64,000 nt of DNA from a bacterium. Lineage in GTDB: Bacteria; Patescibacteriota; Andersenbacteria; UBA10190; CAIZMI01. A program made the translations under genes and the position numbers. The first letter of the stretch is position 1, and each line of letters opens with the position of its first letter. Shown here piece after piece: positions 155 through 63,579 of the stretch. The notes beneath the pieces were generated by a model, which saw only the letters and a program-made list of their open reading frames with translations, had not been told where the DNA came from and searched no databases. Location: NCBI GenBank assembly GCA_030647555.1, contig JAUSJG010000013.1, positions 12,086-76,085 of the forward strand, in the 5' to 3' direction.

Positions 155-156
155 AA

Positions 157-3405: not shown

Positions 3406-3444
3406 ATCAGTGACCGACCCCGGCGTGCGGGGACGGTCCCTGAT
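3406..3444. repeat. Palindromic element family 2 (GACCGTCCC type): atcagtgaccgaccccggcgtgcggggacggtccctgat
   Basis: Identical copy at 7389-7427; related copies 21361-21398, 38601-38639, 48678-48715, 59907-59944. Confidence 0.75.
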
Positions 3445-6432: not shown

Positions 6433-6477
6433 TCATTGCGTGATGCGGTTGAGTGAATTTTTTTAAACTAAAACTTG

Positions 6478-6644: not shown

Positions 6645-7274
6645 GTGATGGGACATGCGAACGCGGGAACAGATTTTACGATTGATCAAGTCATGGCTAT
6701 TCGGGAGATGGAGAGAAAGTTAGCGCGACAAGGATTTCGCGGTGCTCGAAAAGAGGTTCAAGATGCTTTCGAAGTGTTGCATTACCGTATTAAGGCGTTG
6801 AAAAAACACCGCTTGGTGGATTGTTCTAAGGGGGCGTCTATCCCTGATGGATGTTTGATTCTTGAAGAAGATCAGTTACCGGGAAGAAAGAAAGACGAGA
6901 TGATCCTGAGTGTTCGTTTTATGGAGCTTTGGATTCCGGAAGCCAGGATGCCGGGAATATACAGCAGAGCCGCATTGCTTGAGGAGCTTCAACAAAATGA
7001 ATCAGCGGTACTTCCGTTGAGCGTTCTCGATCACGATCTTCTTTGGCAGCACGGGATTTTCTACGGGCTCATTCCCGATCAAGGTAGCATCTTATTCTGG
7101 GGTACGATCTTTCGCGATGTAAATGGGATTCCAACAGTAAAAGGGTTGTCTCGAAAGCGAGCGGACATTTATCTGCGAGATTTCCCCATCGACAGCTTGC
7201 GGAGTACTGTGCCACAGCGCGAATATGTTGCGCTTTATGTCAACGCTCCAATGATTGACACCGGTGTCTGGTAA
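6645..7274 (+). CDS. Hypothetical protein, FWGT-motif family (paralog of 20738-21304)
   Basis: Shared segment LL..I...LIP....(I/V)(L/F)FWGT..R...G with 20738 protein; atypical codon usage. Confidence 0.5.
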   Translation: MMGHANAGTDFTIDQVMAIREMERKLARQGFRGARKEVQDAFEVLHYRIKALKKHRLVDCSKGASIPDGCLILEEDQLPGRKKDEMILSVRFMELWIPEARMPGIYSRAALLEELQQNESAVLPLSVLDHDLLWQHGIFYGLIPDQGSILFWGTIFRDVNGIPTVKGLSRKRADIYLRDFPIDSLRSTVPQREYVALYVNAPMIDTGVW

Positions 7275-7295
7275 ATAGCGTACGCAGTTTTTCTG

Positions 7296-7322
7296 CTCCA
7301 CGGAATCCCGTGGAGTTTTTTT
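7296..7322 (+). terminator. Intrinsic terminator ctccacggaatcccgtggag + T7
   Basis: Hairpin and T-run after stop. Confidence 0.55.
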
Positions 7323-7374
7323 GTTTTCGCGCGCTCGCGAAAACAATCCCCCATAGTCTTGGTGAAGGGGGATG
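7322..7374. repeat. Variable palindrome gttttcgcgcgctcgcgaaaac + CAT-element variant aatcccccatagtcttggtgaagggggatg
   Basis: Architecture shared with four other sites. Confidence 0.55.
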
Positions 7375-7388
7375 ATTTATTTTTTTAA

Positions 7389-7427
7389 ATCAGTGACCGA
7401 CCCCGGCGTGCGGGGACGGTCCCTGAT
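7389..7427. repeat. Palindromic element family 2, identical to 3406-3444
   Basis: Exact repeat. Confidence 0.75.
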
Positions 7428-8198: not shown

Positions 8199-9284
8199 AT
8201 GAAGATTATTGAAGCTACAATTACAGACAGAGTAAATTGGGACACGTTTGTTTCAGGTCAACAAAGTGGTTCCTTCCTCCAGTCCTGGCTTTGGGGAGAT
8301 TTTCAAAACGCGGCGGATTTTCGAATAAAACGCTTAATTATTGTTTCGGTGGACGCAATTGGGGCAATTCATGAATTGCCCCTACATGACGAGCGTAATA
8401 ACTGGCTCGCGGTCTGTTTGTTGGTTGAACGGCGGTTGTCTTTTGGAAGAAGTTATTGGTATGCGCCATGGGGGCCGGTTACCAAAGACGGTCTTAATGA
8501 TAGTCAGTATAAACTAGTTTTGCAGGCGTTGCGCGCGCATTTCACAACAAACCGAAATGGTAGTGAAATGTTTTTGCGTATCGAACCGCATCTGCACACA
8601 AGCGAAGTTGGAAAAATTTTGTTGAGTGAGACGAAATTTAATCCGTTGGAAAAAAGTGTCCAACCGAAAGACACGTTGCTCTTAGATCTCACACAAAGCG
8701 AGGATGACTTGCTTCGGCAGATGCACTCCAAGACGCGCTACAACATTCGGATTGCGATCCGGCACGGTGTGACGGTTGCAGAAGAAACCAGCGTCGAGGG
8801 ATTAAAGGTTTTTTATGCAATGGCGCGCGAGATTGAAAGTAAGGGTGAGTTTCATTATCACAAAGAAAAATATTACATGAAAATGTTGGAAGTTTTAGGA
8901 AAAGAACGGGGAGTATCTATAATCGTAGCGCGACACGATGGTGAACCTTTGGCGGCCGGAATTTTTATTAAGTCCGGAAAAACTTTTACCTATGCGCACG
9001 GTGCGTCCTATAAAAAGAAGGCGCATGTGATGGCGCCGCATCTTTTACACTGGGAAGCGATTGTGCAGGCAAAGAAGCAGGGTTTTCAAAGTTATGATTT
9101 TTTCGGCATCGCGCCAAATGAAAATCCAAAACATTCATGGGCGGGGATTAGCAGGTTCAAGCGCGGATTTGGCGGGGCGGAGCAACACTACTTGGGTGCG
9201 TGGGACGCGGTGTTTGATGTAATAGGATATAGAGTGCTTAACAGTGCAAGGGCGCTTAAGAATATCTTTATGGTGAAGAAATAG
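8199..9284 (+). CDS. FemAB-family peptidoglycan interpeptide-bridge aminoacyltransferase
   Basis: FemAB-like pattern incl. HLLHWEAI...YDFFG; adjacent to murE. Confidence 0.7.
   Translation: MKIIEATITDRVNWDTFVSGQQSGSFLQSWLWGDFQNAADFRIKRLIIVSVDAIGAIHELPLHDERNNWLAVCLLVERRLSFGRSYWYAPWGPVTKDGLNDSQYKLVLQALRAHFTTNRNGSEMFLRIEPHLHTSEVGKILLSETKFNPLEKSVQPKDTLLLDLTQSEDDLLRQMHSKTRYNIRIAIRHGVTVAEETSVEGLKVFYAMAREIESKGEFHYHKEKYYMKMLEVLGKERGVSIIVARHDGEPLAAGIFIKSGKTFTYAHGASYKKKAHVMAPHLLHWEAIVQAKKQGFQSYDFFGIAPNENPKHSWAGISRFKRGFGGAEQHYLGAWDAVFDVIGYRVLNSARALKNIFMVKK
8361..8386. repeat. 26-bp palindromic repeat ggggcaattcatgaattgcccctac inside femAB ORF (encodes IGAIHELPLH); identical copy 63554-63579
   Basis: Exact 26-mer match at two loci. 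Confidence 0.7.
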
Positions 9285-9289: not shown

Positions 9290-9425
9290 TGAATTATCAA
9301 TTTTCAATGATCAATTATCAATTAATTATCAAATTTTAAATTTTCAAATCACGCCAACGTTTTGATAATTTAATCATTGAACATTGATCATTAATTGAAA
9401 ATTGGGAATTGAAAATTGAAAATTT
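9290..9425. repeat. Long AT-rich hairpin (atcaattttcaatgatcaattatcaattaa...); related copy 51716-51830
   Basis: Inverted arms after femAB stop. Confidence 0.5.
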
Positions 9426-9504
9426 ATCAACCACTGGGTACGATGCAGTCAATACAACAACAAGTTGTTGACGATAAACACCAATAATAATATAAAGATT
9501 CATC

Positions 9505-10920: not shown

Positions 10921-10999
10921 GTATATTGTATTTGGTATATAGTATATGAATGTCACGGGGCTTGGTTTTCCCATATACTACATACAATATACTATATAC
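10921..10999. repeat. AT-rich inverted-repeat element (gtatattgtatttggtatatagtatatg ... catatactacatacaatatactatatac); copies at 30581-30648, 30996-31075, 48721-48770
   Basis: Shared 28-bp arm sequence at four loci. Confidence 0.6.
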
Positions 11000-20409: not shown

Positions 20410-20540
20410 CAAAAATCCCAATGACCAAACCCCAATGTCCAACAAAAACCCAATTATCAAAATTCCAAAGTTGCGATTTTTTTTGGTTATTAAAATTTTT
20501 GAATTTTGTTGGGCATTGGTCATTGGGGTTTGGGATTTTG
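20410..20540. repeat. Long hairpin element (tcccaatgaccaaaccccaatgtccaacaaaa ... ttttgttgggcattggtcattggggtttggga); family copies 24997-25125, 32453-32605, 53893-54027, 57531-57660
   Basis: Inverted arms ~32 bp; same arm sequence after rpoC, ftsK, ychF, uvrC, uvrA. Confidence 0.65.
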
Positions 20541-21325: not shown

Positions 21326-21361
21326 ACGCCTCGTGCTTTGTTGCACGAGGCGTTTTTTTTA
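21326..21361 (+). terminator. Intrinsic terminator acgcctcgtgctttgttgcacgaggcgt + T9
   Basis: Hairpin and T-run. Confidence 0.6.
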
Positions 21362-21398
21362 TCTGGGACCGTCCCTGCAGTCAGGGTCGGTCACAGAT
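21361..21398. repeat. Palindromic element family 2 variant (atctgggaccgtccctgcagtcagggtcggtcacagat)
   Basis: Shares gaccgtccc/gggtcggtc arms. Confidence 0.55.
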
Positions 21399-21443
21399 AA
21401 AACATTAATTTGTGAACAGTAAATTTTGTGAAATTATTCATTG

Positions 21444-21472
21444 CCAAACGGCCTCTTTTTTGCTATAATTAC
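21444..21472 (+). promoter_or_regulatory. Promoter TTGCCA-17-TATAAT, 3 nt before ATG 21476 (leaderless-type)
   Basis: Hexamers read directly. Confidence 0.4.
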
Positions 21473-21475
21473 AAT

Positions 21476-21700
21476 ATGGAATTCAGACAATCGCTCTTTT
21501 GGGACACCGATCCCAAGAAAATTGATCCGCAAAAACACGCGCAATACATCATTGAGCGCGTGGCGGATTTTGGTAACGATAAAGAAGCGCGTTGGGTCTT
21601 GGATTTTTATGACAAACCGCTGCTTCAAAACATTATTTCTAAATCGCGCTGTTTAAGGCCGCGCACAAAAAAATTATGGACGCTTTTGGTCAACAGATAG
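21476..21700 (+). CDS. Small protein (MEFRQSLFWDTDPKKIDPQKH...), putative partner/antitoxin of the downstream AbiEii-family gene; overlaps it by 25 nt
   Basis: ORF directly after promoter; overlap suggests coupling. Confidence 0.4.
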   Translation: MEFRQSLFWDTDPKKIDPQKHAQYIIERVADFGNDKEARWVLDFYDKPLLQNIISKSRCLRPRTKKLWTLLVNR

Positions 21701-22347
21701 TTTGGCAATACCAAACACTGCCTGCTAACACAAAAAAAGCGTTAGATTTTTTGTCCGCGGAAAATTGGTTGGAAAAAACCGATTGGTATTTGGCAGGAGG
21801 CACAGCCTTGGCATTGCAGGCGGGGAATCGAAAATCTTTCGATTTAGATTTTTTTACTGTTCAAAAAGATTTTGATGGTAAAAAACTGCTTGCCAATTTT
21901 TTGGGTAATGATAATTGGAAGACAGATATTGAAGATACAAATACGATCTATGGGCAATTATTTGGGGCTAAAGTAAGTTTTATTGCTTACCCGTTTTTTA
22001 TCCCAAAGCAAAGGTTTATTCAACATGGTTCTGTGTGCGTGCTTGATAAGACTGACGTTGCGGTGATGAAAATAACGGCCATTTCTCAACGGGGCAGGAA
22101 GAGAGATTTTTTTGATTTATATTGGTGCGCGACAAACATCGAATCATTGGAAAACATCGTTAAACGGCTTAAAGAACAATATCCGTTTATTGCGCATAAT
22201 TATCACCACATTCTTAAAAGTCTAGTGTATTTTGACGATGCGGAAGGCGATCCCGAACCGGAGGTTTATTTTGATGCCACATGGGAAAAAGTTAAAGAAT
22301 ATTTTACAAAAGAAGTTCCGTCGATTGTCGACAAGATAGTGAATTAA
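21676..22347 (+). CDS. Nucleotidyltransferase AbiEii/AbiGii toxin-family protein
   Basis: WYLAGGTALALQAGNRKSFDLDFF motif typical of AbiEii NTases. Confidence 0.65.
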   Translation: MDAFGQQIVWQYQTLPANTKKALDFLSAENWLEKTDWYLAGGTALALQAGNRKSFDLDFFTVQKDFDGKKLLANFLGNDNWKTDIEDTNTIYGQLFGAKVSFIAYPFFIPKQRFIQHGSVCVLDKTDVAVMKITAISQRGRKRDFFDLYWCATNIESLENIVKRLKEQYPFIAHNYHHILKSLVYFDDAEGDPEPEVYFDATWEKVKEYFTKEVPSIVDKIVN

Positions 22348-24996: not shown

Positions 24997-25125
24997 TGGT
25001 TATTAAACCCCAAATCCCAATGACCAATGTCCAACAAAACCATAATTACTAAAATCCCAAAACGCGTATTTGGTCATTAGTATTTTGGAATTTTGTTGGA
25101 CATTGGGGTTTGGGATTTGGGGTTT
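24997..25125. repeat. cccaatgaccaa-family long hairpin after ftsK
   Basis: Arm sequence shared with 20410-20540. Confidence 0.6.
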
Positions 25126-25188
25126 AAAAGGCACTTGTGTCGGTGAAGGCTAGGAGAAAATCAATTAGTAATGCTAAAGTAAATCCAT

Positions 25189-28519: not shown

Positions 28520-28924
28520 TTACCGTGCATATGTGGAGATAATTTTTTTGTTCAGTTTTCTTTCCATTTCAAAAAAGGGGGCGTAGTTGTGATAAATCTT
28601 GAACGCATTTAGTTTAAATTTTAATAAATCCCGCCTGTCGCCATAGAGCAGGATTGGATTTTTGCTTACTTGGAACGACAAAAGCGGATTGGCTTTGTTT
28701 AAAATTGTTAGATCGACTTCTTTGTTGAAGATTGCGGAAAGTTCATTGATTAAATCAACATGTTCCTTAAAAAAAACGTCTTTCATGCCTAAAACGGCAA
28801 TGTCTAAATCGCTGTCCTTTCTTTGTTTTCCAGTCGCAAAAGAACCAAAAACAACCACCAATTTCAGTTGAAATTTTTTGGTGAGTTCAGTGATCTTCGT
28901 TTTTTGATCTTGGGTCGTTTCCAT
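28520..28924 (-). CDS. Nucleotidyltransferase (MNT-type), no adjacent HEPN partner
   Basis: FGSFATGKQRKDSDLDIAV motif. Confidence 0.65.
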   Translation of the reverse strand: METTQDQKTKITELTKKFQLKLVVVFGSFATGKQRKDSDLDIAVLGMKDVFFKEHVDLINELSAIFNKEVDLTILNKANPLLSFQVSKNPILLYGDRRDLLKFKLNAFKIYHNYAPFFEMERKLNKKIISTYAR

Positions 28925-30134: not shown

Positions 30135-30315
30135 AGGGCTTGATAATTAATAAACGCCTTATCTTATGTCCAATCCATCTCCAAATACAACCGCTTCTCA
30201 ATCAAAAATCTTTCAACGTATGTCAAATACGTCTCAAGATTTTGTTCAATCAAAGACAGTTGTCTTTGAAGCGCATTGAACATAATCTTAAAGCGTTTAT
30301 TAATTACCAAGCCCT
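30135..30315. mobile_element. MITE-like element copy B (181 bp) with 23-bp TIRs agggcttgataattaataaacgc / gcgtttattaattaccaagccct, inserted 4 nt after recA stop
   Basis: TIRs and ~85% identity to copy A (1-154) and reverse copy C (60882-61061). Confidence 0.7.
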
Positions 30316-30317
30316 AA

Positions 30318-30523
30318 TGGACAAACGGAGGACTTATAAAAAAATTGATCTGGAAGGGATTGATTTGCCCGGACCACGGCGCGAGACGGTGATGTTGCCT
30401 AAATCAAACACGTGGAAGTATTGGGTGGGTGCGTTTGTGTTGCTCGGATTTGTATCGGCGATGGTGCTGTTGAATTGGAACGCGGTGAGCCAAGCGGCGT
30501 TTGTGCGGGCATTGGTAAATTAG
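30318..30523 (+). CDS. Small hypothetical membrane protein (68 aa, one TM)
   Basis: ATG immediately after MITE end; hydrophobic segment. Confidence 0.3.
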
Positions 30524-30580
30524 CAAAAGCTTTTCTAATTGAGTTTGGTTTAATTTTTTAGCTGAACTGTTTTCAGACTT

Positions 30581-30648
30581 GTATATTGTATTTGGTATAT
30601 AGTATATGGATTTAGAAAATCTTGTTGACCCCATATATCATATACTTT
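30581..30648. repeat. gtatat-family AT-rich inverted-repeat element
   Basis: Shares gtatattgtatttggtatatagtatatg arm. Confidence 0.55.
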
Positions 30649-30995: not shown

Positions 30996-31075
30996 GTATA
31001 TTGTATCTGGTATTTAGTATATTGATTTATCGAGACTGAATAAACCCATATACTAAATACAATATACTATATACA
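30996..31075. repeat. gtatat-family AT-rich inverted-repeat element
   Basis: Arms gtatattgtatctggtatttagtatat / catatactaaatacaatatactatatac. Confidence 0.55.
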
Positions 31076-32337: not shown

Positions 32338-32452
32338 AACTCGCTAGAATGTAACACGAGGGGCTAAATTGTGCAAGCACGAGGGGGCTTGGATATTGTG
32401 ACTTGGGGATTTATTCGGAATTAAAGCTTGATTAGTGGTAACTCAACCTTTT

Positions 32453-32605
32453 AAATCCCAATGACCAAACCCCAATGTCCAACAAAACTTCAAAATCTTA
32501 ATGACCAAAATGACACTTCTTTGGGATTTTAGAAATTAGAATTTTGTTGCCTGCCGGCCGAAGCTTTAGCGAAGGCTGGGTCATTGGGATTTGGAGTTTG
32601 GAGTT
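32453..32605. repeat. cccaatgaccaa-family long hairpin with nested ~30-bp insertion (ctgccggccgaagctttagcgaaggctggg)
   Basis: Arm sequence shared; aagctttagcgaag also at 28366-28379. Confidence 0.55.
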
Positions 32606-33838: not shown

Positions 33839-34240
33839 TTGCGATATTATTGGCGCATGACGGAAGAAAATTTAGTGATTTATTGGCAAGAAGGGGCGCG
33901 AGAAGCGTGGAAAACCGCGGAGGCTTTAATGGCATCAAAACGTTATGTGCATACTCTTTTCTTTTGCCATTTAACACTAGAAAAGGCGTTAAAAGCTTGT
34001 TATGTCGATGTGAACAAGGTTCCCTCTCCACCAGTACATGATTTAAACTGGTTGGCGGAAGAGGCAAAAGTTAGTGTGAGTGATGATGATAAAAATATAC
34101 TTGCGGAAATATCAAAATTTAATATCGCCGGGCGTTATGAAGATTATAAATTGCGTTTGCACGAAGAGGCTACTTTTGAATACGTCAGTCGCTGGGTGGG
34201 TGAAACAAAAAGGCTGATGGATGTTTTATTGGCCGAATAA
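33839..34240 (+). CDS. HEPN domain protein (toxin component)
   Basis: HEPN-like helices with AGRYEDY R-x-H type motif region; overlaps MNT gene by 20 nt. Confidence 0.55.
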   Translation: MRYYWRMTEENLVIYWQEGAREAWKTAEALMASKRYVHTLFFCHLTLEKALKACYVDVNKVPSPPVHDLNWLAEEAKVSVSDDDKNILAEISKFNIAGRYEDYKLRLHEEATFEYVSRWVGETKRLMDVLLAE

Positions 34241-34583
34241 TATGATTATAGAAAATAAACCCGACCAAGAAGCGATTCAAATCGCACAAAGGTTTGGTGA
34301 TTTGGTAAAAAAACAGGGCGTTGATGTGCGAAAGGTCTTGTTGTTTGGATCTCGCGCGCGCGGTGGCTGGAAACCATGGAGCGATGTCGATATTTGCGTT
34401 ATCTCGCCTCAATTTGGCAAGAATGTTTCGGAAGAAATGGGCATGTTGTTGCGTCTTACCGTACAATTAAAATCGCCATTTCCCGTTGAGCCGATTCCTT
34501 TCGGCTTGGATGATCTTGAAGACAAATTCAGCACGCTTGCGAACGAAATTCGTAAGTATGGCGTTTCTGTAGAAATTAAATAA
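34221..34583 (+). CDS. Nucleotidyltransferase (MNT-type antitoxin)
   Basis: LFGSRARGGWKPWSDVDICV motif. Confidence 0.7.
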   Translation: MFYWPNNMIIENKPDQEAIQIAQRFGDLVKKQGVDVRKVLLFGSRARGGWKPWSDVDICVISPQFGKNVSEEMGMLLRLTVQLKSPFPVEPIPFGLDDLEDKFSTLANEIRKYGVSVEIK

Positions 34584-38056: not shown

Positions 38057-38145
38057 TTTCTTCATCAATCAGCGTCATGTACCCTACGTCACAACCCTTG
38101 TAATTGTCGTCTGGTAGTGTTACATTATTAAGAAGGAAAGACTAT

Positions 38146-38592
38146 ATGAAATCAATTACAAGCAAAATTTTGACATTATCGATTTTTGGCCTAGGTGCTT
38201 TTTCTTTGCTGACGCCCGGTTTAGCGATGGCGAGCAATGACGGTTGGGGTAATTTGAATTGGAATCGAACACAAGCGCAAGCAAAAGGAATGTGGCAGTT
38301 GGAAAATTGGCTTTCGGATGTGCAACAGCGTTGGAATAAATCGGACAAAAATCATCATCACGACAACAATAATGATCATCGCCAAAACGTGAATGTTAAT
38401 TATGGTGGAAATAACAATGTTAATGTGCGTCAACATCAAGAAGTGACCGGTGACTTCAAGAGTGTCACTTTGGAACAAAAAGTCCGGGTTTATGTTAATG
38501 GCGTGTTAACCTCCAATGAACAACAAACATCTGTCCACAGTAATGGCGACAAAGCCGAGCAGTGGCAAGAAATTTCAGTGAAGGGGAGATAA
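38146..38592 (+). CDS. Secreted His/Asn-rich hypothetical protein (signal peptide MKSITSKILTLSIFGLGAFSLLTPGLAMA)
   Basis: Signal-peptide-like N-terminus, low-complexity HHHDNNNDH region. Confidence 0.5.
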   Translation: MKSITSKILTLSIFGLGAFSLLTPGLAMASNDGWGNLNWNRTQAQAKGMWQLENWLSDVQQRWNKSDKNHHHDNNNDHRQNVNVNYGGNNNVNVRQHQEVTGDFKSVTLEQKVRVYVNGVLTSNEQQTSVHSNGDKAEQWQEISVKGR

Positions 38593-38600: not shown

Positions 38601-38639
38601 ATCAGGGACCGTCCCCGGCGTGCGGGCACGGTCCCAGAT
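38601..38639. repeat. Palindromic element family 2 (atcagggaccgtccccggcgtgcgggcacggtcccagat)
   Basis: Related to 3406-3444. Confidence 0.65.
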
Positions 38640-46970: not shown

Positions 46971-47012
46971 CCGATCACGGAACGGAGCAACCTTGCTCCG
47001 TTCCGTGATCGG
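46971..47012. repeat. Palindromic element family 1 (ccgatcacggaacggagcaa-cc-ttgctccgttccgtgatcgg); supplies the last ~12 codons and stop of the HepT gene
   Basis: Overlap of palindrome with 3' end of ORF 46975-47439. Confidence 0.65.
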
Positions 47013-47439
47013 TGTTGGTCGCCACTACCTTGCTGATTATTTGCACGAATTGTTCAAGATCTCCCAAATTGTTTTGGAGGTTTTCGTATACTATTTCCGG
47101 ATCAACGTCCAAATAATCGTGGACCAAGACATTGCGGAAACTTTTCGCTTTTGTCAGTTTGACAGCGAGTTCTTCGGACAAGATTCCCGAGTTTGCCAAT
47201 ATTTCAAATTCACTATTTTTTTCGCCGGGCTTTTGTAATTTGTTTTCAATTATTAAATAACGCGCGATATCAACAACGGTCTCCAGTCCTGTTTGGAACA
47301 GGCGTTCCACCGAAAGTTCGTTGCGTTCATCGGCAAAGTATTCGTTTTTCGACAGCGCTTGGTATTTTTTCAGCTTTTCCAGTGTTTCTTCCAGCGAGGA
47401 TAATTTATTGACGACTATTTCTTTAGTTATTTCAGTCAT
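46975..47439 (-). CDS. HepT-like HEPN (DUF86) toxin; C-terminus read through a palindromic element
   Basis: RNVLVHDYLDVDPEIVY Rx4HxY motif. Confidence 0.7.
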   Translation of the reverse strand: MTEITKEIVVNKLSSLEETLEKLKKYQALSKNEYFADERNELSVERLFQTGLETVVDIARYLIIENKLQKPGEKNSEFEILANSGILSEELAVKLTKAKSFRNVLVHDYLDVDPEIVYENLQNNLGDLEQFVQIISKVVATNTDHGTEQGCSVP

Positions 47440-47443
47440 TATA

Positions 47444-47890
47444 TTATGATGCGGTTAAATTGTTTAAGAAAGATTGGTTGTAAAGTTTCAGAAAATCTTT
47501 TTGGTCGTCGTATTCACGTAAAACCGCCATCTCGAATTTTACGCGTTCTCCATGTTCTTTTTCCGCTAGAACAATACCTTCACTGATCACCGCCATCCGC
47601 AAAGCGAGCGGGGCTTGGTTGAGTACGGAAATATCCAGCGCTTCTGTTGGTACATCAAAAATTTTTCCAATTATTTCGTGCGCGATTAAACGCGCGTCAA
47701 ACTGTGTCTGTTTTGAAGCATTGGGATCCAAAAATAAGGCGATGTCGATATCGCTTTCCTCATGTATGTCGCCGGAAACGGCGGAACCGAAAATATAGGC
47801 AAACAAAATCGGAAGGCCGGCCATTTCTTTTTCGGCCAGTTTGTTTAAATCGTCTGTGACAGTAATTTTCTTCGCGCCAAAGCGTTTCAT
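47444..47890 (-). CDS. Nucleotidyltransferase (MNT-type antitoxin)
   Basis: FGSAVSGDIHEESDIDIAL motif; 4-nt gap to HepT. Confidence 0.75.
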   Translation of the reverse strand: MKRFGAKKITVTDDLNKLAEKEMAGLPILFAYIFGSAVSGDIHEESDIDIALFLDPNASKQTQFDARLIAHEIIGKIFDVPTEALDISVLNQAPLALRMAVISEGIVLAEKEHGERVKFEMAVLREYDDQKDFLKLYNQSFLNNLTAS

Positions 47891-48540: not shown

Positions 48541-48770
48541 CGCGACCACCTCGGTCGCGATTTTTTTATTGCCCATCGGAATGGGCAATAATCCCCCTTA
48601 GCTCATCAGAGCGACGGGGGATGTTGCCTTGTTTTGTATCGATTATATCGATACAAACGGAAGATTGCTTACACGAAATCGGTGACCGACCCTGACCGCA
48701 GGGACGGTCCCCGATTAACTTCTCAAATCCTTATACTATATACCAAATACCATATACAAATCTAAATACA
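48541..48770. repeat. Repeat nest: terminator repeat (48541-48567), palindrome attgcccatcggaatgggcaat + CAT element (48569-48623), TGTATCGATTATATCGATACA (48635-48655), family-2 palindrome (48678-48715), gtatat-family fragment (48721-48770)
   Basis: Five different repeat families juxtaposed within 230 bp. Confidence 0.65.
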
Positions 48771-51675: not shown

Positions 51676-51715
51676 GTGGGTATTATACACCAAACATGCG
51701 AAAAATTTTCAATAA

Positions 51716-51830
51716 TCAATTTCCAATTATCAATGAATTATCAATTAACTAATTTTCAATGACGACGCCGAATTGAAAATTGGAATTTGATCATTAATTG
51801 ATAATTGGCCATTGAAAATTGATACTTATA
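51716..51830. repeat. AT-rich hairpin (caataatcaatttccaattatcaatgaattatcaatta...), related to 9290-9425
   Basis: Inverted arms. Confidence 0.45.
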
Positions 51831-51832: not shown

Positions 51833-53872
51833 CTATCTTCTTAAAAATTCTATTAATATCTCTGTTTTTTTAGAACCTAATATTTTTTCTAATTCTTCAA
51901 CTGTTGCTGCTCTGATTCCGGCCAATGATCCAAATGCGCGGAGTAACTTTTTGCGAGTGCCTGGTCCAATGCCCGGAATTTCTTCGAGGATTGATTTTGT
52001 CATTCGCTTTTTTCGAAGGAGGCGGTGATAACTGATTGTGAATCGGTGCGCTTCGTCGCGCATCCGTTGCATTAAATAAAAAGCGGGGGAAGTACGATCG
52101 AGGATGATTGAAGAAGAATTTTTTGTGGTAAAAATTTCTTCTTCTCGTTTGGCGAGAGAAATTAATGGGATCTTTAAATCAAGTTCAGTAAAAAGTTTAT
52201 TGATCGTATTTAATTGCGGTTTGCCACCGTCGAGAACAATCAGGTCAGGTAGAGGCCAGCGCGATTTTTCCTCCCTTGATAAAGGGAGGCGGGGAGGGAT
52301 TTTGTTATTGGGCCGCGAAATCTCCCTTGTTCCCCCTTTATCAAGGGGGAGACGGCTCTTAAATCTTCGTGTCAGTGTTTCCCGCATCATTCCTACATCG
52401 TTTGGTTCACCGTCGTTGATAATTTTAAATTTGCGATATTCCGATGGCACGGATTTTCCGTCGATGAAAACCACCATCGAAGCGGTCGCCAATTTTCCTT
52501 GAATGTTTGAAATATCATATGTCTCAATTCGTTTTGGTAGGGTTGGAAGATTCAACTTTTCCTGTAGGTCGGTAATACTCTTGAGTAAATTTTGGGGACT
52601 TTGTAATTCTGTTTCAGAACGGTTCAATGATTCTTGGGCATTTGTATTTGCCATGTCGATTAACTGTTTTTTCCAGCCACGTTCTGGAAATTTGATAGTC
52701 AGTCTTTGCGAACCCCGCCCTTGGCGGGGTGAAGCAATCTCGTCGGCGTTTTGAATCGGGGGATTGCTTCGCCTCACTGCGGTGATGGCTCGCAATGACG
52801 ACGACGGTGTCGGCAAATAAATAATCTTTGCTCCTCCTTGTGCTGTCGGTAAATATTGCGCTAGAAATTCTTCCCAAATGTCTTTTTCTTCTTTCTTGTC
52901 CGGTAAAAGCAATGGGAAAATTTGTCGTCCAATAATCCGACCTTGGCGTAATTGCAGAAGGGCGATACTGCCATGACCGCCACGGTGCGCCAAACCAAAC
53001 ACATCCGCATTTTCATTTCTTGTTGTGATCACGTCCTGTGGAATCATTGTTTGCTGAATCGCTTTAATCCGGTCGCGTAAAGCGGCGGCTTTTTCGTAAT
53101 GTTGTTGTTCACTTAGCTCATTCATTCGTTCAGTTATTGCACCAAGTACTGCATCAGTATCGCCATCCAAAAACTTTTTTAAGCGGACGAAATTGTTTTG
53201 GTATTCTTCGAGGCTAATCGCGCCGACACAAATTCCCGGGCACAAACCGATGTGATAGGCGAAACAGGGACGACGTAATCCCTCCCGCGCTGGCACCCCC
53301 TCAAACGTCCGCTGGACGTTCTTGGTGGCCCCGCCTCCCTTTGGAAAAAGGGAGGGGACGCCAACGCTTCCCTCCTTTTTCCAAAGGAGGGCGGGGGTGG
53401 ATTTTCCCGGGTCAGGATATCCGCACCAAGGAAAAAACTTTCGCGCTTCTTTTAATGTCTGTCGTACCGCTCGAGAATTTGGATAAGGGCCACGATACCA
53501 CGCACCATCCGTTGCAACTTTTCGTTCCAAAGAAACTTTTGGATAGGCTTCATTAGAAATCCTTACGTATAGATAAGATGAATCATCAACCAAGCGCACA
53601 TTATATGGTGGTCGGTGTTTATGGATTAGCGTGCCTTCCAATACCAGGGCTTCCGTTTCATTTTTTACAATTATTGTCTCAACCGAAAAAGCGAGCTTCA
53701 CCATCTCGACCTTGAGTGGTTCAAGTCGAGTTGGTGCAAAATATTGGGCGACACGTTTCTTTAGTGATTTCGCTTTGCCAATATAAAGGATCGCGCCTTT
53801 GGCGTCTTTAAATTGGTAAACACCGGGTAAGTCGGGAAGGTTTTTGGCTTGATTTTTTAATTCATTTTCCAT
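51833..53872 (-). CDS. uvrC: Excinuclease ABC subunit C (UvrC), ~70-100 aa longer than typical owing to three in-frame palindromic insertions
   Basis: GIY-YIG (GVYQFKD...ILYIGKA), RPCFAYHIGLCPGIC, ENDO V/RNaseH-like and C-terminal HhH domains. Confidence 0.9.
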   Translation of the reverse strand: MENELKNQAKNLPDLPGVYQFKDAKGAILYIGKAKSLKKRVAQYFAPTRLEPLKVEMVKLAFSVETIIVKNETEALVLEGTLIHKHRPPYNVRLVDDSSYLYVRISNEAYPKVSLERKVATDGAWYRGPYPNSRAVRQTLKEARKFFPWCGYPDPGKSTPALLWKKEGSVGVPSLFPKGGGATKNVQRTFEGVPAREGLRRPCFAYHIGLCPGICVGAISLEEYQNNFVRLKKFLDGDTDAVLGAITERMNELSEQQHYEKAAALRDRIKAIQQTMIPQDVITTRNENADVFGLAHRGGHGSIALLQLRQGRIIGRQIFPLLLPDKKEEKDIWEEFLAQYLPTAQGGAKIIYLPTPSSSLRAITAVRRSNPPIQNADEIASPRQGRGSQRLTIKFPERGWKKQLIDMANTNAQESLNRSETELQSPQNLLKSITDLQEKLNLPTLPKRIETYDISNIQGKLATASMVVFIDGKSVPSEYRKFKIINDGEPNDVGMMRETLTRRFKSRLPLDKGGTREISRPNNKIPPRLPLSREEKSRWPLPDLIVLDGGKPQLNTINKLFTELDLKIPLISLAKREEEIFTTKNSSSIILDRTSPAFYLMQRMRDEAHRFTISYHRLLRKKRMTKSILEEIPGIGPGTRKKLLRAFGSLAGIRAATVEELEKILGSKKTEILIEFLRR
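52258..52345. repeat. GGGAGG-type palindromic element in-frame in uvrC (encodes ...SRLPLDKGGTREISRPNNKIPPRLPLSREEKSR...)
   Basis: Inverted arms ctcccttgataaagggagg / ccccctttatcaaggggg; insertion between conserved MRETLTRRF and PDLIVLDGGK. Confidence 0.65.
52702..52799. repeat. gcgagccatcgacc-family element in-frame in uvrC
   Basis: Reverse complement aligns with 61641-61769 ends (cgtcattgcgagccatc...cgcaaagac). Confidence 0.55.
53290..53415. repeat. GGGAGG-type palindromic element in-frame in uvrC between WC..D and RPCF Cys motif (encodes ...PGKSTPALLWKKEGSVGVPSLFPKGGGATKNVQRTFEGVPAREG)
   Basis: Long inverted arms ccgcctccctttggaaaaagggagg / cctcctttttccaaaggagggcgg. Confidence 0.65.
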
Positions 53873-54668: not shown

Positions 54669-57530
54669 ATGGCAAATGTTATCACCATCCGCGGGGCGCG
54701 CGTTCATAACTTAAAAAACGTCGATGTAACCATTCCACGCGACAAGCTGGTGGTTATCACCGGACTCTCGGGTTCCGGTAAATCTTCTCTCGCTTTTGAT
54801 ACACTTTACGCGGAAGGGCAACGTCGTTATGTTGAATCGCTTTCCGCTTACGCTCGGCAGTTCTTGGGTTTGATGGACAAACCGGACGCCGACCAAATTG
54901 ACGGGCTAAGTCCGGCAATTTCCATCGATCAAAAATCCGGGACACGCAATCCGCGTTCTACGGTAGGTACTGTTACAGAAATTTACGATTATCTTCGTTT
55001 GCTTTTTGCCAGAACCGGTGTCCCGCATTGTCCGCAGTGTGGAAAGATGATTCGTCGTCAAACAATCAAGGAAATTACCGATCAGATTTTGAATTTGCCG
55101 GACGGCTCAAACATTATGGTGTTGGCGCCCAAGATTCGCGACCGCAAAGGTGAGCACAAACAAATTTTCAAAGAAATTGAACAGCAGGGTTATGTGCGCG
55201 CTCGTGTCGACGGCTCGGTTTATGATTTGCAAGAAGCGCAACAATTGGAATTGGATAAACAAAAAAAGCATTCTATTGAGGTTGTGATCGATCGCTTGTT
55301 AATTGATAAGCGCAACTTGGATCGTCCGCGCATTGCCGACTCGGTAGAAACAGCAACCCGTATTGGTGGGGGCATTGTGATCATCGAAGATCGCACCGCG
55401 AAAAAAGATTTTGTTTATTCTGAACAATTTGCTTGTTCGGATTGTGGGATCAGTTTGACCGAAGTGGAACCAAGAATGTTTTCGTTTAATAGTCCGCACG
55501 GCGCGTGTCCGGCTTGTACCGGTCTTGGTACGCAATTGGAAGTAAACGAAGAACTTGTAATTCCTAATCGCAAATTAACTTTGGCCGAAGGCGCCATTAA
55601 ACCGTGGAGTCGCCGGATGCGTGGCAGTTCATGGGCGATGTGGATTTTGGAAGCAGTGGCTAAAAGAAACCATTTTTCGTTGGATGTGCCGGTTAGTAAG
55701 TTATCGGAAGAAGTAATGGAAATTATTATGTTTGGTATGGGTGACGAAAAAATCACTGTGAAAACCGAAGAGGGTACGACGATGGAAACAAAATTTGAAG
55801 GTGTGGTTCCCAATTTGATGCGTCGCTACAAAGAAACGGATTCGGATTATGCCAGAAGCGAAATCGAGCGTTATATGGTGAGCAAGCCCTGTCCGGTTTG
55901 CAAAGGGAAGCGTCTTAAGCCGGAATCATTAAGCGTTTTCTTGGCCGGAAAAAATATGCACGAAGTTGTGTCATTAACTATCGCTGATAACTACAAACTC
56001 TTTTCTGATCTCGCGCAAAACCCGAAATCACACGAAACTTTTGGTCCACGTGAGCAAATTATCGGCAAGCAGGTATTACTGGAAATTCGTGCTCGCTTGA
56101 AGTTTTTACTCGACGTCGGTTTGGATTATCTGACTTTAGATCGTTCGGCCGCCACATTGGCCGGCGGTGAAGCGCAACGGATTCGTTTAGCCACACAAAT
56201 TGGTTCCGGTCTCGTTGGGGTGCTTTATATTTTGGACGAACCGTCAATTGGTTTGCATCAACGCGATAATTCGCGCTTGATTGGCACATTGAAAACTTTG
56301 CGTGATTTGGGTAACTCGGTAATTGTTGTGGAACACGACGAAGAGATGATTCGTAATGCGGATTATGTGATTGATGTCGGGCCGGGCGCCGGTGAACACG
56401 GCGGGCAAATTGTTTTCGCGGGAACGGCGAAAGCATTGGAAAAATCCAACACGCTTACCGGCAAATATCTCGCCGGAAAAATGGAAATTCCTGTGCCGAA
56501 GAAAAAGCGCGCCGGAAATGGAAAGACATTGGTCATCAAAGGCGCGACCGAACACAATTTACAAAACGTCGATGTAAAAATTCCGTTGGGTAAATTTGTT
56601 TGCGTGTCCGGTGTTTCCGGTTCCGGAAAATCGACATTGATTAACGATATTCTCTCGAAGGTCTTGGCCAAAGAATTCTACGGGGCCAAAGATTTGCCGG
56701 GTAAACACGATAGTGTTCAAGGTCTGCAAAATCTCGACAAAGTAATTATGATTGATCAATCGGCAATTGGTCGCACCCCACGCAGTAATCCTGCCACATA
56801 TACCGGCGTCTTTACCGCGATTCGCGAATTGTTTTCGGCCACTCCGGAAGCAAAAGTGCGCGGTTATGATGCCGGACGTTTTTCTTTCAATGTACGTGGT
56901 GGTCGTTGTGAAACCTGTCAGGGTGACGGAGTGATTCGGATTGAAATGCAATTTTTACCGGACGTTTACGTGGAGTGCGAAGAGTGTCACGGTAAACGTT
57001 ACAATCGCGAAGCGTTGGATATTCTTTATAAAGGAACAACGATTGCGGAAATTTTGAATATGACGGTGGAACGGGCGCACGAATTTTTCCGTGCTATTCC
57101 GGCGATTGAATCGAAATTGGCCGTGCTTGAACAAGTTGGTCTTGGCTATGTCCACTTGGGTCAACCGGCGACGCAACTTTCCGGTGGTGAAGCACAGCGC
57201 ATTAAATTGGCCACAGAACTTTCCCGTCGCGCCACCGGTAAAACAATTTATATTTTGGATGAACCGACAACGGGTTTGCATTTCGATGATGTCCGTAAAT
57301 TGTTAACTGTTTTGCATGCGTTGGTCGACAAAGGTAATTCTGTTTTAGTCATCGAACACAATCTCGATGTTCTTAAAGCGGCCGATTGGATTATTGATTT
57401 GGGCCCGGAAGGTGGAAACAAAGGCGGAGAAATTATCGCCGAAGGTACGCCGGAAGAAGTATCACGCGTGGCGAAGAGTTACACAGGGCAGTATTTGAAG
57501 GGGATGCTGGGGAAGAAAAAGACAAAATAA
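54669..57530 (+). CDS. uvrA: Excinuclease ABC subunit A (UvrA)
   Basis: Two ABC ATPase modules ([14 protein letters not shown]; [13 protein letters not shown]), zinc fingers. Confidence 0.97.
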
Positions 57531-57660
57531 ATCCCAATTTCCAAATCCCAAAACCCAACAAAATCCCAAAATCATAATGACCAAAACGGTTAGTCTTTGG
57601 AATTTAGGTGATTAGGATTTTGTTGGACATTGGTCATTGGGGTTTGGGTTTTATTACCAA
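57531..57660. repeat. cccaatgaccaa-family long hairpin after uvrA
   Basis: Arm similarity. Confidence 0.55.
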
Positions 57661-59780: not shown

Positions 59781-60848
59781 ATGTGTGTGGAAACTAATAA
59801 TTTAAAAATCGAACAAGCGATTCTTGCCACGCTGGCCTACCACGATATTTTGAATATGCCGTTAACGGCGACCGAAATTTGGCGGTATTTGTTTAGAGAA
59901 CAACCAATCAGGGACCGACCCTGCATACAGGGACGGTCCCTGATTGGCGCATCGCTTACGGAAACAGAAAACATACTTAAGAATTTGTACAAATTTAATG
60001 AAATCGAATTTCATTCAGGCTACTACTATTTCCTCGAACGACAAGATTTAGTTGAAAAGCGTCTAAAAATGCACGCGTTGGCGCAAATTAAGTGGAAACG
60101 GTTGCGACGCATCGTTTGGTTTTTGCAGGCGATTCCTTTTTTGGAGATGGTGGCGGCGAGCGGCTCGCTTGCCCGCGAGTTTACGCATAAAGATAGTGAT
60201 CTGGATGTTTTGTTGGTTACAAAAGCGGGTAGGATTTGGACCGTGCGGTTTATTGTGACGGTAATTTTGGACTTGTTTCACTTGCGCCGGCGTCCGACAG
60301 GACCCACCCGTGACCTGGTTTGTTTGAATCATTATTTGGCACAGGACGGTTTAGCGCTTCCGTATCAAAGTTTATATACCGCTTTGGAGTATGCGCATAT
60401 CGTCCCACTCATTGGTGATAAAGTTTGTGCGGAATTTCGGGAAGCGAATAGAGAATGGATTGAGAAATATTTGGTACGTTTATTGCCCGATGAAATTGAT
60501 AATCTTAAACAAGTGCGAAAATCCTTTTTTCTTTCGGGGATTAAAAAAATAGTTGAGCTTTTGTTGTGCGGTATGGTTGGCGACGCACTAGAAGAGTGGT
60601 TAGGAAAAAGACAGAAAGAGAGAATTGTAAAAAACGAGGAAAATGCGACGGCGGGCGGTCGGATCGTGGCCAGTCCATTGCATTTGGAGTTTCATCCGCA
60701 CAGCAAAGAAGCGCCGTTGCTGAAAAAGTTTAATGAGAAAATGGCGGAAATGGGATTGGACGCGTTTGGTGGGCAAAAAGATTCCGGCTTGACAAAAAAT
60801 GCAAACGGATATATGATCCCGACATCCTCGGATGCCGACCCGCCGTAA
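59781..60848 (+). CDS. Nucleotidyltransferase-superfamily protein (Pol-beta-like GS...DSDLDVLLV) with N-terminal wHTH-like region; carries in-frame family-2 palindrome
   Basis: GSLAREFTHKDSDLDVLLV motif; start at MCVETNN. Confidence 0.5.
   Translation: MCVETNNLKIEQAILATLAYHDILNMPLTATEIWRYLFREQPIRDRPCIQGRSLIGASLTETENILKNLYKFNEIEFHSGYYYFLERQDLVEKRLKMHALAQIKWKRLRRIVWFLQAIPFLEMVAASGSLAREFTHKDSDLDVLLVTKAGRIWTVRFIVTVILDLFHLRRRPTGPTRDLVCLNHYLAQDGLALPYQSLYTALEYAHIVPLIGDKVCAEFREANREWIEKYLVRLLPDEIDNLKQVRKSFFLSGIKKIVELLLCGMVGDALEEWLGKRQKERIVKNEENATAGGRIVASPLHLEFHPHSKEAPLLKKFNEKMAEMGLDAFGGQKDSGLTKNANGYMIPTSSDADPP
59907..59944. repeat. Palindromic element family 2 inside ORF 59781-60848 (encodes QPIRDRPCIQGRSLIG)
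   Basis: atcagggaccgaccctgcatacagggacggtccctgat read directly in coding frame. Confidence 0.7.
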
Positions 60849-60881: not shown

Positions 60882-61061
60882 AGGGGACTGACGTAAATAA
60901 ACTGTCCATATTCTGTTCAATACGCTCTGAATACAAGTACTGCGACCGAACAAAATTTCGAAGCGTACTAGCAGTACGTTGAGAGATTTTGTGACCGAGC
61001 AGTGCTTGTAGTCAGAGATGTAGTGGACATAAGATGGATAGTTTATTTACGTCTGTCCCCT
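60882..61061. mobile_element. MITE-like element copy C (180 bp, reverse orientation) with 26-bp TIRs aggggactgacgtaaataaactgtcc / ggatagtttatttacgtctgtcccct
   Basis: Core aligns to reverse complement of copy A. Confidence 0.65.
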
Positions 61062-63469: not shown

Positions 63470-63553
63470 GGTTTGCACCAAGTGCAAACCGCAACCCCGT
63501 ACTGAACATCAGTTCTAGTACGGGGTAAGCGCGAAACAAAGGGTTATACGTGT

Positions 63554-63579
63554 AGGGGCAATTCATGAATTGCCCCTAC
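63554..63579. repeat. Palindrome ggggcaattcatgaattgcccctac (within gtaggggcaattcatgaattgcccctac hairpin) after groEL; identical 26-mer inside femAB
   Basis: Exact match to 8361-8386. Confidence 0.7.

What the first reader, a model, noticed from the sequence alone, without database searches (positions are those of the whole stretch)
59907..59944. Family-2 palindrome (GACCGTCCC type, 6 copies) including an in-frame copy inside a nucleotidyltransferase gene
A 38-40-bp near-palindrome, atcag(t/g)gaccg(a/t)cccNNNNNNNggg(a/t)cggtc(c/a)c(t/a)gat, occurs six times: at 3406, 7389 (identical to the first), 21361, 38601, 48678 and 59907. The arms are conserved while the central 7-9 nt vary.

Five copies are intergenic, directly after terminators. 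The sixth lies inside ORF 59781-60848 and is translated as QPIRDRPCIQGRSLIG.

Spurious ORFs across the intergenic copies translate to the similar peptide VTDPGVRGRSLIC. So a given reading frame of the element is open in both orientations, a property expected of elements that survive in coding DNA.
Basis: seen in the sequence. Interest (0 to 1): 0.6.

Follow-up and report, generated by a model that had tools for sequence, protein, structure and literature searches.

The report
Small hairpin repeat that invades genes
A 38-39-base hairpin-forming DNA repeat is scattered through this small, probably Patescibacteria, genome, and one copy sits in frame inside a working gene, adding 13 residues to a surface loop; this is a known kind of event (REP or Rickettsia-type palindromic elements) seen here in a new sequence family and host group.

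Summary
There are six copies of a 38-39-nt imperfect palindrome (core GACCGACCC-N7-9-GGGACGGTC) where shuffles predict none. All six fold as long hairpins.

Ten more copies turned up, all in one related MAG (bin-405) and one JGI metagenome. Across the 16 copies two stem mismatches (A·A, T·C) are conserved and give the element a polarity. Two stem pairs covary. Complementarity runs 2-4 non-conserved bases into the flanks.

The copy in the nucleotidyltransferase (NTase) gene is an insertion:
- It lies in a hypervariable loop of an N-terminal winged-helix domain that the AF2 model leaves as low-confidence coil.
- The closest syntenic homologue lacks it.
- Another syntenic homologue carries an unrelated GTAG-type REP doublet in the same loop.

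A second in-frame copy, in another reading frame, sits in a GT2 glycosyltransferase of the same MAG and of bin-405. A third orthologue is empty there.

The element has no GTAG or CGTC tag, no doublet organisation, no clear target duplication, and no transposase nearby. I read it as a non-autonomous, REP/MITE-like mobile hairpin filtered by selection into spacers and permissive protein loops. The mobilising enzyme is unknown.

This is a new variant of a known kind, of moderate interest.

The parts
3406..3444 (+). Family-2 hairpin copy 1 (39 nt, forward orientation). Intergenic, 106 nt beyond the 3' end of the DUF3800 gene (minus strand) and 30 nt after an unrelated 44-bp perfect palindrome.
7389..7427 (+). 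Copy 2, identical to copy 1 over the 39-nt element (about 45 nt with flanks). Intergenic, 46 nt upstream of the ruvA start and about 63 nt past a terminator-like site.
21361..21398 (-). Copy 3 (38 nt), reverse orientation. It starts immediately after the T-run of a terminator-like hairpin (21326-21360) and lies 29 nt upstream of the DUF6922/AbiEii gene pair.
38601..38639 (+). Copy 4 (39 nt), the most diverged core (GACCGTCCC...GGGCACGGTC). It lies 8 nt after the stop codon of ORF 38104-38592.
48678..48715 (+). Copy 5 (38 nt), between convergent genes. It abuts an AT-rich repeat unit, and the same composite occurs in bin-405 (L015).
59907..59944 (+). Copy 6 (38 nt; the palindrome extends to 59904-59947). 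It is in frame in the NTase gene and encodes IRDRPCIQGRSLI (residues 43-55).
59781..60848 (+). Host gene: an N-terminal winged-helix domain plus a nucleotidyltransferase domain (PF01909). It is full length with the family's invariant residues intact. The insert lies in the loop between helices 30-35 and 59-71.

Best explanation
Family 2 is a non-autonomous, REP/MITE-like mobile DNA hairpin carried by a narrow clade of small-genome, probably Patescibacteria/Parcubacteria, bacteria.

**The unit.** It is a 38-39-nt imperfect palindrome with a 15-17-bp stem, a 4-5-nt loop and two conserved internal mismatches that give it polarity.

**How it spreads (inferred).** It is copied to new sites by an enzyme supplied in trans that recognises the folded hairpin, most plausibly on single-stranded DNA, as RAYT and IS200/IS605 Y1 transposases do with REPs.

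**How it survives.** Insertions persist only where they are harmless: in intergenic spacers, mostly downstream of genes, and occasionally in frame in surface loops of proteins. The NTase copy is one such insertion. It adds about 12-13 residues (IRDRPCIQGRSLI) to the helix 2-helix 3 loop of the N-terminal winged-helix domain without breaking the gene.

**Shown versus inferred.**
- Shown: dispersal, hairpin conservation with covariation, filled versus empty orthologous sites, and in-frame survival in two genes.
- Inferred: that spread is by transposition, that the substrate is a hairpin, and the identity of the enzyme.
For: **Non-chance dispersed family.** The window has 6 copies against 0 expected. 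Ten more copies occur, and only in MAG bin-405 and metagenome Ga0163199.

**Recent copying.** Copies 1 and 2 are identical over the element and a few flanking bases, but sit in unrelated flanks 4 kb apart.

**Structure is what is conserved.**
- 89.5% of stem cells pair, and 0 of 500 shuffles reach that value.
- Pair 22/30 is T-A in 10 copies, A-T in 3 and C-G in 3, with no mismatch.
- Pair 10/42 is A-T in 9, G-C in 3 and T-A in 1.
- The A·A mismatch is kept in 15 of 16 copies and T·C in 11 of 16.
- That pattern points to a specifically recognised hairpin rather than a symmetric duplex operator.

**The NTase copy is an insertion.**
- The site is a hypervariable loop.
- Syntenic L001 is empty.
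- Syntenic L002 carries a GTAG REP doublet there.
- The AF2 model has pLDDT 89.3 overall, with the insert in low-confidence coil.

**An independent second case.**
- GT2 gene L004:1135-2220 (bin-405) and its orthologue P0122/L035 carry a copy in a different reading frame (DQGPTLIAGTVPD).
- P0122 is from the same MAG as the window (accession MDO8512181 against MDO8512379).
- Orthologue P0123/L036 is empty at that site.

**Location bias.** Five of 6 window copies are intergenic although about 81% of the window is coding (P about 0.001).

**Precedent.** Intragenic in-frame REPs and RPEs are documented (PMC3733652, PMC10969869).
Against: - No transposase or RAYT was found among about 55 window ORFs or the ORFs next to copies in related loci.
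- No solitary arms or longer parent element were found.
- No GTAG or CGTC tag and no doublets are present.
- No unambiguous target-site duplication exists. The flanks are inverted-complementary rather than directly repeated.
- Only 16-17 copies were available, and whole genomes could not be scanned.
- No polymorphic empty site was found within a population.
- The net length gain in the NTase loop is 9 residues against the nearest homologues, not the 12-13 expected. The original junctions are therefore blurred.
Confidence: 0.6

Rival explanations
1. The element is a classical cut-and-paste MITE. On this reading the element proper is CAGKGACCG...CGGTCMCTG (34-35 nt of terminal inverted repeat plus loop). 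It inserts at an AT dinucleotide that is duplicated, and a DDE transposase dimer prefers symmetric A/T-centred targets (TTTT-AT-AAAA, CCA-AT-TGG, AA-AT-TT).
For: - Every copy is bounded by AT...AT (15 or 16 of 16).
- The flanks just outside are complementary in 13 of 16 and 11 of 16 copies with varying sequence, as a symmetric target would give.
- Flank type does not track interior subtype.
- In the NTase copy, a 34-nt element plus 2 nt equals 36 nt, which keeps the frame.
- The right junction of the GT2 copy aligns with an AT in the empty allele GCATGG.
- A TA-flanked 185-bp MITE coexists in the genome.
Against: - AT...AT could equally be part of the stem.
- No autonomous element with these ends was found.
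- At 38 nt the element is far below usual MITE sizes.
- Conserved internal mismatches and stem covariation are not needed for recognition of terminal inverted repeats on duplex DNA.
- The left GT2 junction does not fit a clean 2-bp duplication.
Confidence: 0.2
2. The hairpin is a host-recruited structural element, for example an mRNA 3'-end stabiliser, a transcription attenuator, or a binding site for a nucleoid or topoisomerase protein. Selection keeps it for that role, and mobility is incidental or extinct.
For: - All five intergenic copies lie 8-200 nt downstream of a gene's 3' end, and none lies between divergent genes.
- The stable hairpin forms in either orientation.
- Stem covariation shows selection on pairing.
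- In the GT2 orthologues one stem pair changed A-T to T-A even inside coding sequence.
- REPs in other bacteria are credited with such roles (PMC3733652).
Against: - The element is mixed in orientation relative to transcription, with almost no G·U pairs.
- The conserved A·A and T·C mismatches do nothing for RNA stability.
- Fourteen of 16 copies lack a U-run.
- Two independent intragenic copies have no obvious regulatory logic.
- Five copies are too few to establish a positional bias.
- No Rfam family matches.
Confidence: 0.15
3. The in-gene sequence is ancestral or convergent coding sequence, and the intergenic copies are unrelated look-alikes or gene fragments.
For: None beyond the fact that the loop is variable, so the exact junctions cannot be reconstructed.
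Against: - None of 30 homologues shares the residues.
- The DNA matches the family model at 57 bits, E about 2e-16.
- The family occurs in unrelated contexts in three assemblies.
Confidence: 0.02

Closest known systems
REPs / REPINs (GTAG-tagged repetitive extragenic palindromes mobilised by RAYT Y1 transposases)
   Same: Both are short (20-40 bp) imperfect palindromes that are dispersed and mostly sit downstream of genes. Both form sub-families with complementary stem changes and conserved stem mismatches. Several families coexist in one genome, and occasional copies lie inside genes (PMC3733652).
   Different: - No unpaired GTAG tag at either end.
- The copies are singletons, not inverted doublets.
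- The stem is longer (15-17 bp against mostly 6-9 bp).
- No RAYT was seen in the DNA examined.
- Genuine GTAG REP doublets do occur in this window (63552-63579) and in the NTase loop of relative L002, as a separate family.
CGTC-tagged REPs, including Rickettsia RPE-4/RPE-6 and Neisseria dRS3
   Same: Both are small palindromes with 4-5-nt loops and no dedicated transposase known. Both are found inside genes in frame (PMC3733652). Five of 16 copies here have CCA next to one end, reminiscent of the CCA tail described for CGTC repeats.
   Different: CGTC is not a terminal unpaired tag here; the string CGTC lies within the stem of one strand. CGTC-REP stems are 8-9 bp and begin with A-T pairs. Their hosts are mostly Alphaproteobacteria.
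Rickettsia palindromic elements (RPE-1 and relatives)
   Same: Both show in-frame insertion of a palindromic repeat into unrelated housekeeping genes at positions compatible with the protein fold, in a reduced genome (PMC10969869).
   Different: RPEs are about 100-150 bp and encode 30-50 residues, with a large share of copies intragenic. Here the element is 38-39 bp and encodes about 13 residues, and 2 independent events out of about 15 loci are intragenic. There is no sequence similarity and the host phylum differs.
Bacterial MITEs (Correia, ERIC, BOX/RUP and others)
   Same: Both are non-autonomous inverted-repeat elements found in spacers that sometimes fuse in frame with ORFs (PMC10969869).
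   Different: The element is much shorter than typical MITEs, has no unambiguous target-site duplication and has no matching IS.

Membership tests
REP (GTAG superfamily, RAYT-associated) | Short imperfect palindrome, multi-copy, dispersed and predominantly extragenic | tested here: met
   Six copies in 64 kb against 0 expected. The hairpins fold at -16 to -24 kcal/mol. Five of 6 copies are intergenic.
REP (GTAG superfamily, RAYT-associated) | Conserved unpaired GTAG tetranucleotide at one end | tested here: not met
   The 6-nt flanks of 16 oriented copies show no GTAG or CTAC; the flanks are variable.
REP (GTAG superfamily, RAYT-associated) | RAYT (Y1 transposase) gene in the genome, typically flanked by the REPs | tested here: inconclusive
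   Pfam scans of about 55 window ORFs and of ORFs beside copies in related loci found no Y1_Tnp or any other transposase. The rest of the genome could not be scanned.
REP (GTAG superfamily, RAYT-associated) | Frequent organisation as inverted doublets (REPINs) | tested here: not met
   All 16 copies are singletons, with no second copy within the 8-kb loci or near the window copies.
CGTC-tagged REP | Terminal unpaired CGTC (or TGTC/CCTC) tag, an 8-9-bp stem starting with A-T pairs, and a CCA tail | tested here: not met
   There is no terminal CGTC and the stem is 15-17 bp. CCA adjoins one end in only 5 of 16 copies. Family definition taken from PMC3733652.
MITE | Terminal inverted repeats | tested here: met
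   The whole element is an inverted repeat plus loop.
MITE | Direct target-site duplication | tested here: inconclusive
   Only the terminal AT...AT could be a 2-bp duplication. The bases outside it are inverted-complementary (13 of 16 and 11 of 16 copies), not direct repeats. The one empty/filled comparison (GT2) is blurred on the left side.
MITE | A related autonomous IS with the same termini | tested here: inconclusive
   No solitary arms with up to 4 mismatches were found in the window or 14 related loci. Whole genomes were not searchable.
Rickettsia palindromic elements | In-frame insertion in ORFs at fold-compatible sites | tested here: met
   The NTase loop and the GT2 loop, with filled and empty orthologues.
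Rickettsia palindromic elements | Sequence or length membership in the RPE families (about 100-150 bp, Rickettsia) | tested here: not met
   The element is 38-39 nt. Exact-pattern scans found the family only in bin-405 and Ga0163199, in moderate-GC (0.40-0.50) contigs.
Intrinsic terminator | GC-rich hairpin immediately followed by a T-run | tested here: not met
   Only copies 1 and 2 are followed by TTTGT. The terminator scan flags only the inner part of copy 2.
Known RNA family (Rfam) | A match at the gathering score | tested here: not met
   Only one tRNA is found in the window.

The most novel reading that the evidence does not exclude
These untagged hairpins may represent a distinct, structure-recognised class of mobile DNA in Patescibacteria, moved by an enzyme other than RAYT. 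The variable inverted-complementary flanks could reflect an unusual insertion chemistry or a symmetric target.

Together with several other palindromic families in the same genome, they would then repeatedly colonise the same permissive protein loops: the NTase winged-helix loop, two GT2 loops, and possibly uvrC and FemAB. That would make repeat insertion a systematic source of loop diversification in otherwise streamlined genomes, with the hairpin kept under selection even inside coding sequence.
Probability: 0.15. Interest if true: 0.65.

Novelty: new variant of a known kind. Interest (0 to 1): 0.4.

Why it matters
Patescibacteria (CPR) genomes are usually described as small and streamlined. 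This window is instead crowded with at least eight palindromic or MITE-like repeat families shared with related MAGs.

At least two proteins carry in-frame copies of one family. The same NTase loop has been hit independently by two unrelated repeat families in sister lineages.

Two consequences would follow if this is general:
- Short hairpin repeats would be a recurring source of small insertions in CPR proteins.
- They would also cause annotation artefacts, such as spurious ORFs and odd low-complexity peptides.

My two full-text literature searches found no description of REP-like or MITE repeats in this group. The phenomenon itself, REPs or RPEs inside genes, has been known since 2000-2013, so this extends it rather than changing the picture.

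Tried and rejected
- **Chance or convergence.** Rejected by shuffles and by the covariance-model scores.
- **Ancestral coding sequence.** Rejected by the 31-sequence alignment and the syntenic DNA alignment.
- **Intrinsic terminator.** Rejected, because most copies lack a T-run.
- **Known RNA family.** No Rfam hit.
- **GTAG or CGTC REP membership.** The tags are absent.
- **Local transposase or RAYT.** None in the window ORFs and none beside copies in bin-405 loci.
- **Longer parent element.** No solitary arms.
- **Phage carriage.** The viral-contig scan gave only one unrelated high-GC hairpin.
- **Polymorphic empty sites.** Exact look-ups of flanking proteins returned nothing or the same sample.
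- **Peptide census of in-frame copies.** The search was not run: it accepts E-values only up to 10, and I estimate that 13-residue matches cannot reach that in a database of 5.8 billion sequences.
- **Most other scan hits.** The remaining hits of the genome and metagenome scans are high-GC perfect palindromes that I judged chance or terminator-like. Four lower-GC look-alikes (L013, L018, L026, L030) are noted but were not shown to be related by descent.

Full report
**1. Observation**

The sequence at 59907-59944 is ATCAGGGACCGACCCTGCATACAGGGACGGTCCCTGAT. The core pattern GACCGWCCC-N5-11-GGGWCGGTC occurs five times in the window, where 100 dinucleotide-preserving shuffles gave none. A sixth copy at 38601 has two core substitutions.

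Copies 3406 and 7389 are identical over the 39-nt element. Counting flanking bases, the identity runs to about 45 nt (AAATCAG...CTGATTTGT), by eye on the sequences.

Each copy folds as a single long DNA hairpin of -16.4 to -24.3 kcal/mol. The z-scores are -5.2 to -9.9, and none of 200 shuffles folds as well. A covariance model built later finds these six copies and nothing else in the window.

**2. Anatomy of the element**

Exact-pattern scans of the GTDB species genomes and of the JGI metagenomes gave 18 and 14 loci. Only ten of these belong to the family. They are moderate-GC loci (0.40-0.50) with the same asymmetric core:
- Six loci are in the uncultured-bacterium MAG Loc090907-8-6m_bin-405 (CAIZMI01).
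- Four loci are in metagenome Ga0163199.
- Most of the rest are high-GC perfect palindromes that I treat as chance or terminator-like; four lower-GC look-alikes are listed in section 7.

Oriented and aligned, the 16 copies give the consensus ATCAGTGACCGACCCTGGCGTGCAGGGACGGTCCCTGAT. The features are:
- **Stem and loop.** The stem is 15-17 bp and the loop 4-5 nt.
- **Conserved mismatches.** A·A is kept in 15 of 16 copies and T·C in 11 of 16. They make the element asymmetric, and the window copy at 21361 is in reverse orientation.
- **Covariation.** Pair 22/30 is T-A in 10 copies, A-T in 3 and C-G in 3, never mismatched. Pair 10/42 is A-T in 9, G-C in 3 and T-A in 1. Overall 89.5% of cells pair, and 0 of 500 shuffles reach that value or the observed covariation score. 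Sliding the partner columns drops pairing to 29-45%.
- **Flanks.** Complementarity continues into the non-conserved flanks, in 13 of 16 copies at -1/+1 and 11 of 16 at -2/+2. Recurring flank types are TTTT...AAAA, CCA...TGG and AA...TT. They do not track the interior subtype.
- **What is absent.** There is no GTAG or CGTC tag, no doublet arrangement, no solitary arm or longer parent element, and no Rfam match.

**3. Genomic context**

The window encodes housekeeping genes: uvrB, ruvA, rpoB and rpoC-sized ORFs, ftsK, recA, ssb, uvrC, uvrA and groES/EL. It also carries several HEPN/MNT and AbiE toxin-antitoxin pairs.

Named homologues of the NTase come from Parcubacteria, Paceibacterota and Patescibacteria MAGs. 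The host is therefore probably a CPR bacterium. No ORF in the window hits a transposase family.

About 81% of the window is coding, yet five of six copies are intergenic (binomial P about 0.001). Each intergenic copy lies 8-200 nt beyond a gene's 3' end.

The terminator link is weak. Only copy 21361 directly follows a terminator T-run. Copies 7389 and 48678 are about 60-115 nt past one. Copies 3406 and 38601 have none. Orientation relative to transcription is mixed.

**4. The in-gene copy is an insertion**

ORF 59781-60848 (355 aa) is identical to NCBI MDO8512379.1. It has a weak PF01909 hit.

In an alignment with 30 homologues, all family-invariant residues are present. The element falls in a region that varies from 9 to about 35 residues, just after the conserved EIWRYLF motif.

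Two close syntenic relatives could be read at the DNA level. Both share the uvrA...groES/EL neighbourhood, with uvrA 87% identical in nucleotides in L002.
- L001 (P0003, 76% identical in protein) has no palindrome there.
- L002 (P0002) has a 56-nt GTAG-type REP doublet at the same place: GTAGGGGAGCACCTCTGCGTGCTCCC-GCGC-GGGCGGACACAGAGGTCCGCCCCTAC.
- P0004 and P0006 carry related GEHLCVLPR-type peptides.

So the loop has been colonised independently by two unrelated repeat families.

The AlphaFold2 model is confident overall (mean pLDDT 89.3, pTM 0.88). It places residues 36-58 as coil between helices 30-35 and 59-71 of a winged-helix-like N-terminal domain. Block pLDDT there is 62-72, against 96-98 on either side. 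The insertion is therefore in a surface loop and the gene looks intact.

One caveat concerns length. The loop is 24 residues here against 15 in the nearest relatives. Removing 36 nt (a 34-nt element plus one AT) would leave 12 residues. The original junctions therefore cannot be reconstructed exactly.

**5. A second, independent in-frame case**

In bin-405 the copy at L004:1739-1776 lies in the middle of a GT2 glycosyltransferase (PF00535). There it reads DQGPTLIAGTVPD, a different frame from the NTase copy.
- **Filled orthologue.** P0122 (83% identical) has the same insert (NQGPTLSAGTDPG). The model scores its DNA at 39.7 bits.
- **Same genome as the window.** P0122 is MDO8512181.1, 198 accession numbers from the window's NTase, so I infer the same MAG.
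- **Empty orthologue.** P0123/L036 (85% identical) is empty at the site (GAGGAAAC|GCATGGACTG). The right junction aligns with an AT in the empty allele.
- **Compensatory change.** Between the two filled orthologues one stem pair changed A-T to T-A. This is suggestive, at roughly P 0.03-0.06 by my estimate, but it is a single event.
- **Gain or loss unresolved.** The three orthologues are about equidistant (83-85%).
- **Other repeats in the same gene.** P0124 has another repeat-like peptide at the same site, and L004 has a further repeat-derived insert in another loop.

**6. Interpretation**

The conserved, covarying, asymmetric hairpin, the identical copies in unrelated flanks, the filled and empty orthologous sites, and the restriction to spacers and permissive loops together fit a non-autonomous mobile hairpin of the REP/MITE kind.

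Stem covariation with retained mismatches argues for recognition of a folded strand. It argues against a duplex operator and against simple arm homogenisation.

The mobilising enzyme is unknown and none is nearby. The element fails the defining tag and doublet tests for GTAG and CGTC REPs as described by Di Nocera et al. (PMC3733652).

Two rivals remain open:
- **A true MITE with an AT duplication and symmetric target preference.** This would explain the palindromic flanks and the frame-preserving 36 nt.
- **A host-used RNA or DNA structural element.**

In-frame palindromic repeats in genes are already documented for REPs and for Rickettsia RPEs (PMC3733652, PMC10969869). Two full-text searches found no description of REP-like or MITE repeats in CPR/Patescibacteria.

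About 4 of 6 frames are open in most copies, where about 3.2 are expected by chance. The strand resemblance follows from palindromy.

**7. Other observations**

- The window is dense with further repeat families shared with bin-405 and Ga0163199.
- uvrC and FemAB appear to carry other in-frame palindromes.
- Look-alike perfect palindromes occur in other phyla. One lies inside a PD-(D/E)XK nuclease ORF.
- A viral scan found nothing relevant.

**8. Verdict**

The finding is real and correctly read in its main point. It is a new, untagged variant of a known kind of element, found in an under-studied host group. Interest is moderate.

Noticed in passing
window 1-164, 30135-30319, 60894-61049: A roughly 185-bp MITE-like element with long terminal inverted repeats (GGGCTTGGTAATAAATAAACG...CGTTTATTTATTACCAAGCCC) and TA-like flanks. 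It is shared at 82-94% identity with bin-405 (L016, L020) and Ga0163199 (L021). One copy begins 46 nt after the NTase stop codon.
   Followed up: partly
window 9292-9430 and 51696-51828; 20411-20539, 25005-25126, 32452-32549, 57526-57655: Two further repeat families of about 125-140 bp, each matching itself in both orientations. Both are also present in bin-405 and Ga0163199 loci.
   Followed up: no
window 3332-3375 and 46971-47012: Perfect 44-bp palindromes (...GGAGCGGAGCAA nn TTGCTCCGCTCC...). The family is shared with bin-405 at 92-100% identity. The first lies 30 nt upstream of family-2 copy 1, and the second overlaps the 3' end of the HepT-like ORF.
   Followed up: no
window 10921-10999, 30572-30617, 30996-31074, 48720-48770: AT-rich units (GTATATTGTATTTGGTATATAGTATATGG), often as inverted pairs in spacers. 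One abuts family-2 copy 5, and the same composite (98 nt, 89% identical) occurs in bin-405 L015. They may be promoter-like, but this was not tested.
   Followed up: partly
window 63552-63579 and 8357-8386: A GTAG-type REP doublet (GTAGGGGCAATTCA|TGAATTGCCCCTAC) lies after groEL and is conserved in syntenic L002. A degenerate copy lies inside the FemAB-family ORF 8199-9284, where it reads GAIHELPLH.
   Followed up: partly
window 53326-53400 (uvrC, minus strand 51833-53872): A 23-nt-arm palindrome lies in frame in uvrC, giving the peptide TPALLWKKEGSVGVPSLFPKGGG between the GIY-YIG and UVR domains. There is also an insert of about 28 residues at positions 505-533 relative to solved UvrC structures.
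   Followed up: partly
window 60795-60848: The NTase has an 18-residue C-terminal extension (TKNANGYMIPTSSDADPP) that is absent from all 30 aligned homologues, which end at DSGL(x).
   Followed up: no
window 3445-7388: The two identical family-2 copies, in direct orientation, bracket a 4-kb segment. It holds a DUF3800 gene, a Trp-repressor-like gene and three ORFs with no Pfam hit. This may be an island, but that was not tested.
   Followed up: no
L004:1135-2220 (bin-405) and L035:698-1693 (same MAG as the window): The GT2 glycosyltransferase carries a family-2 copy in frame. In L004 it also has a second repeat-derived insert (EIASADGSPRRPSFAQGYGVAQQGYGGQAQRLL) in another loop. Orthologue P0124 has different repeat-like peptides at both sites.
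   Followed up: yes
L013:3166-3203, L018:5867-5902, L026:133-163, L030:375-403: Perfect-palindrome look-alikes (ATCNGNGACCGTCCC...GGGACGGTCNCNGAT) occur in Calditrichaceae and Deltaproteobacteria MAGs and in two metagenome contigs. The L030 copy lies in frame in a PD-(D/E)XK nuclease ORF, reading SGTVPKGDGPD. It is unknown whether these are related by descent.
   Followed up: partly
window 21428-22347, 33839-34583, 46975-47890, 28520-28924: The window has several toxin-antitoxin-like modules: DUF6922/AbiEii, two HEPN or HepT pairs with a minimal NTase, and a solitary Pol-beta-type NTase. This is a high density for 64 kb.
   Followed up: no
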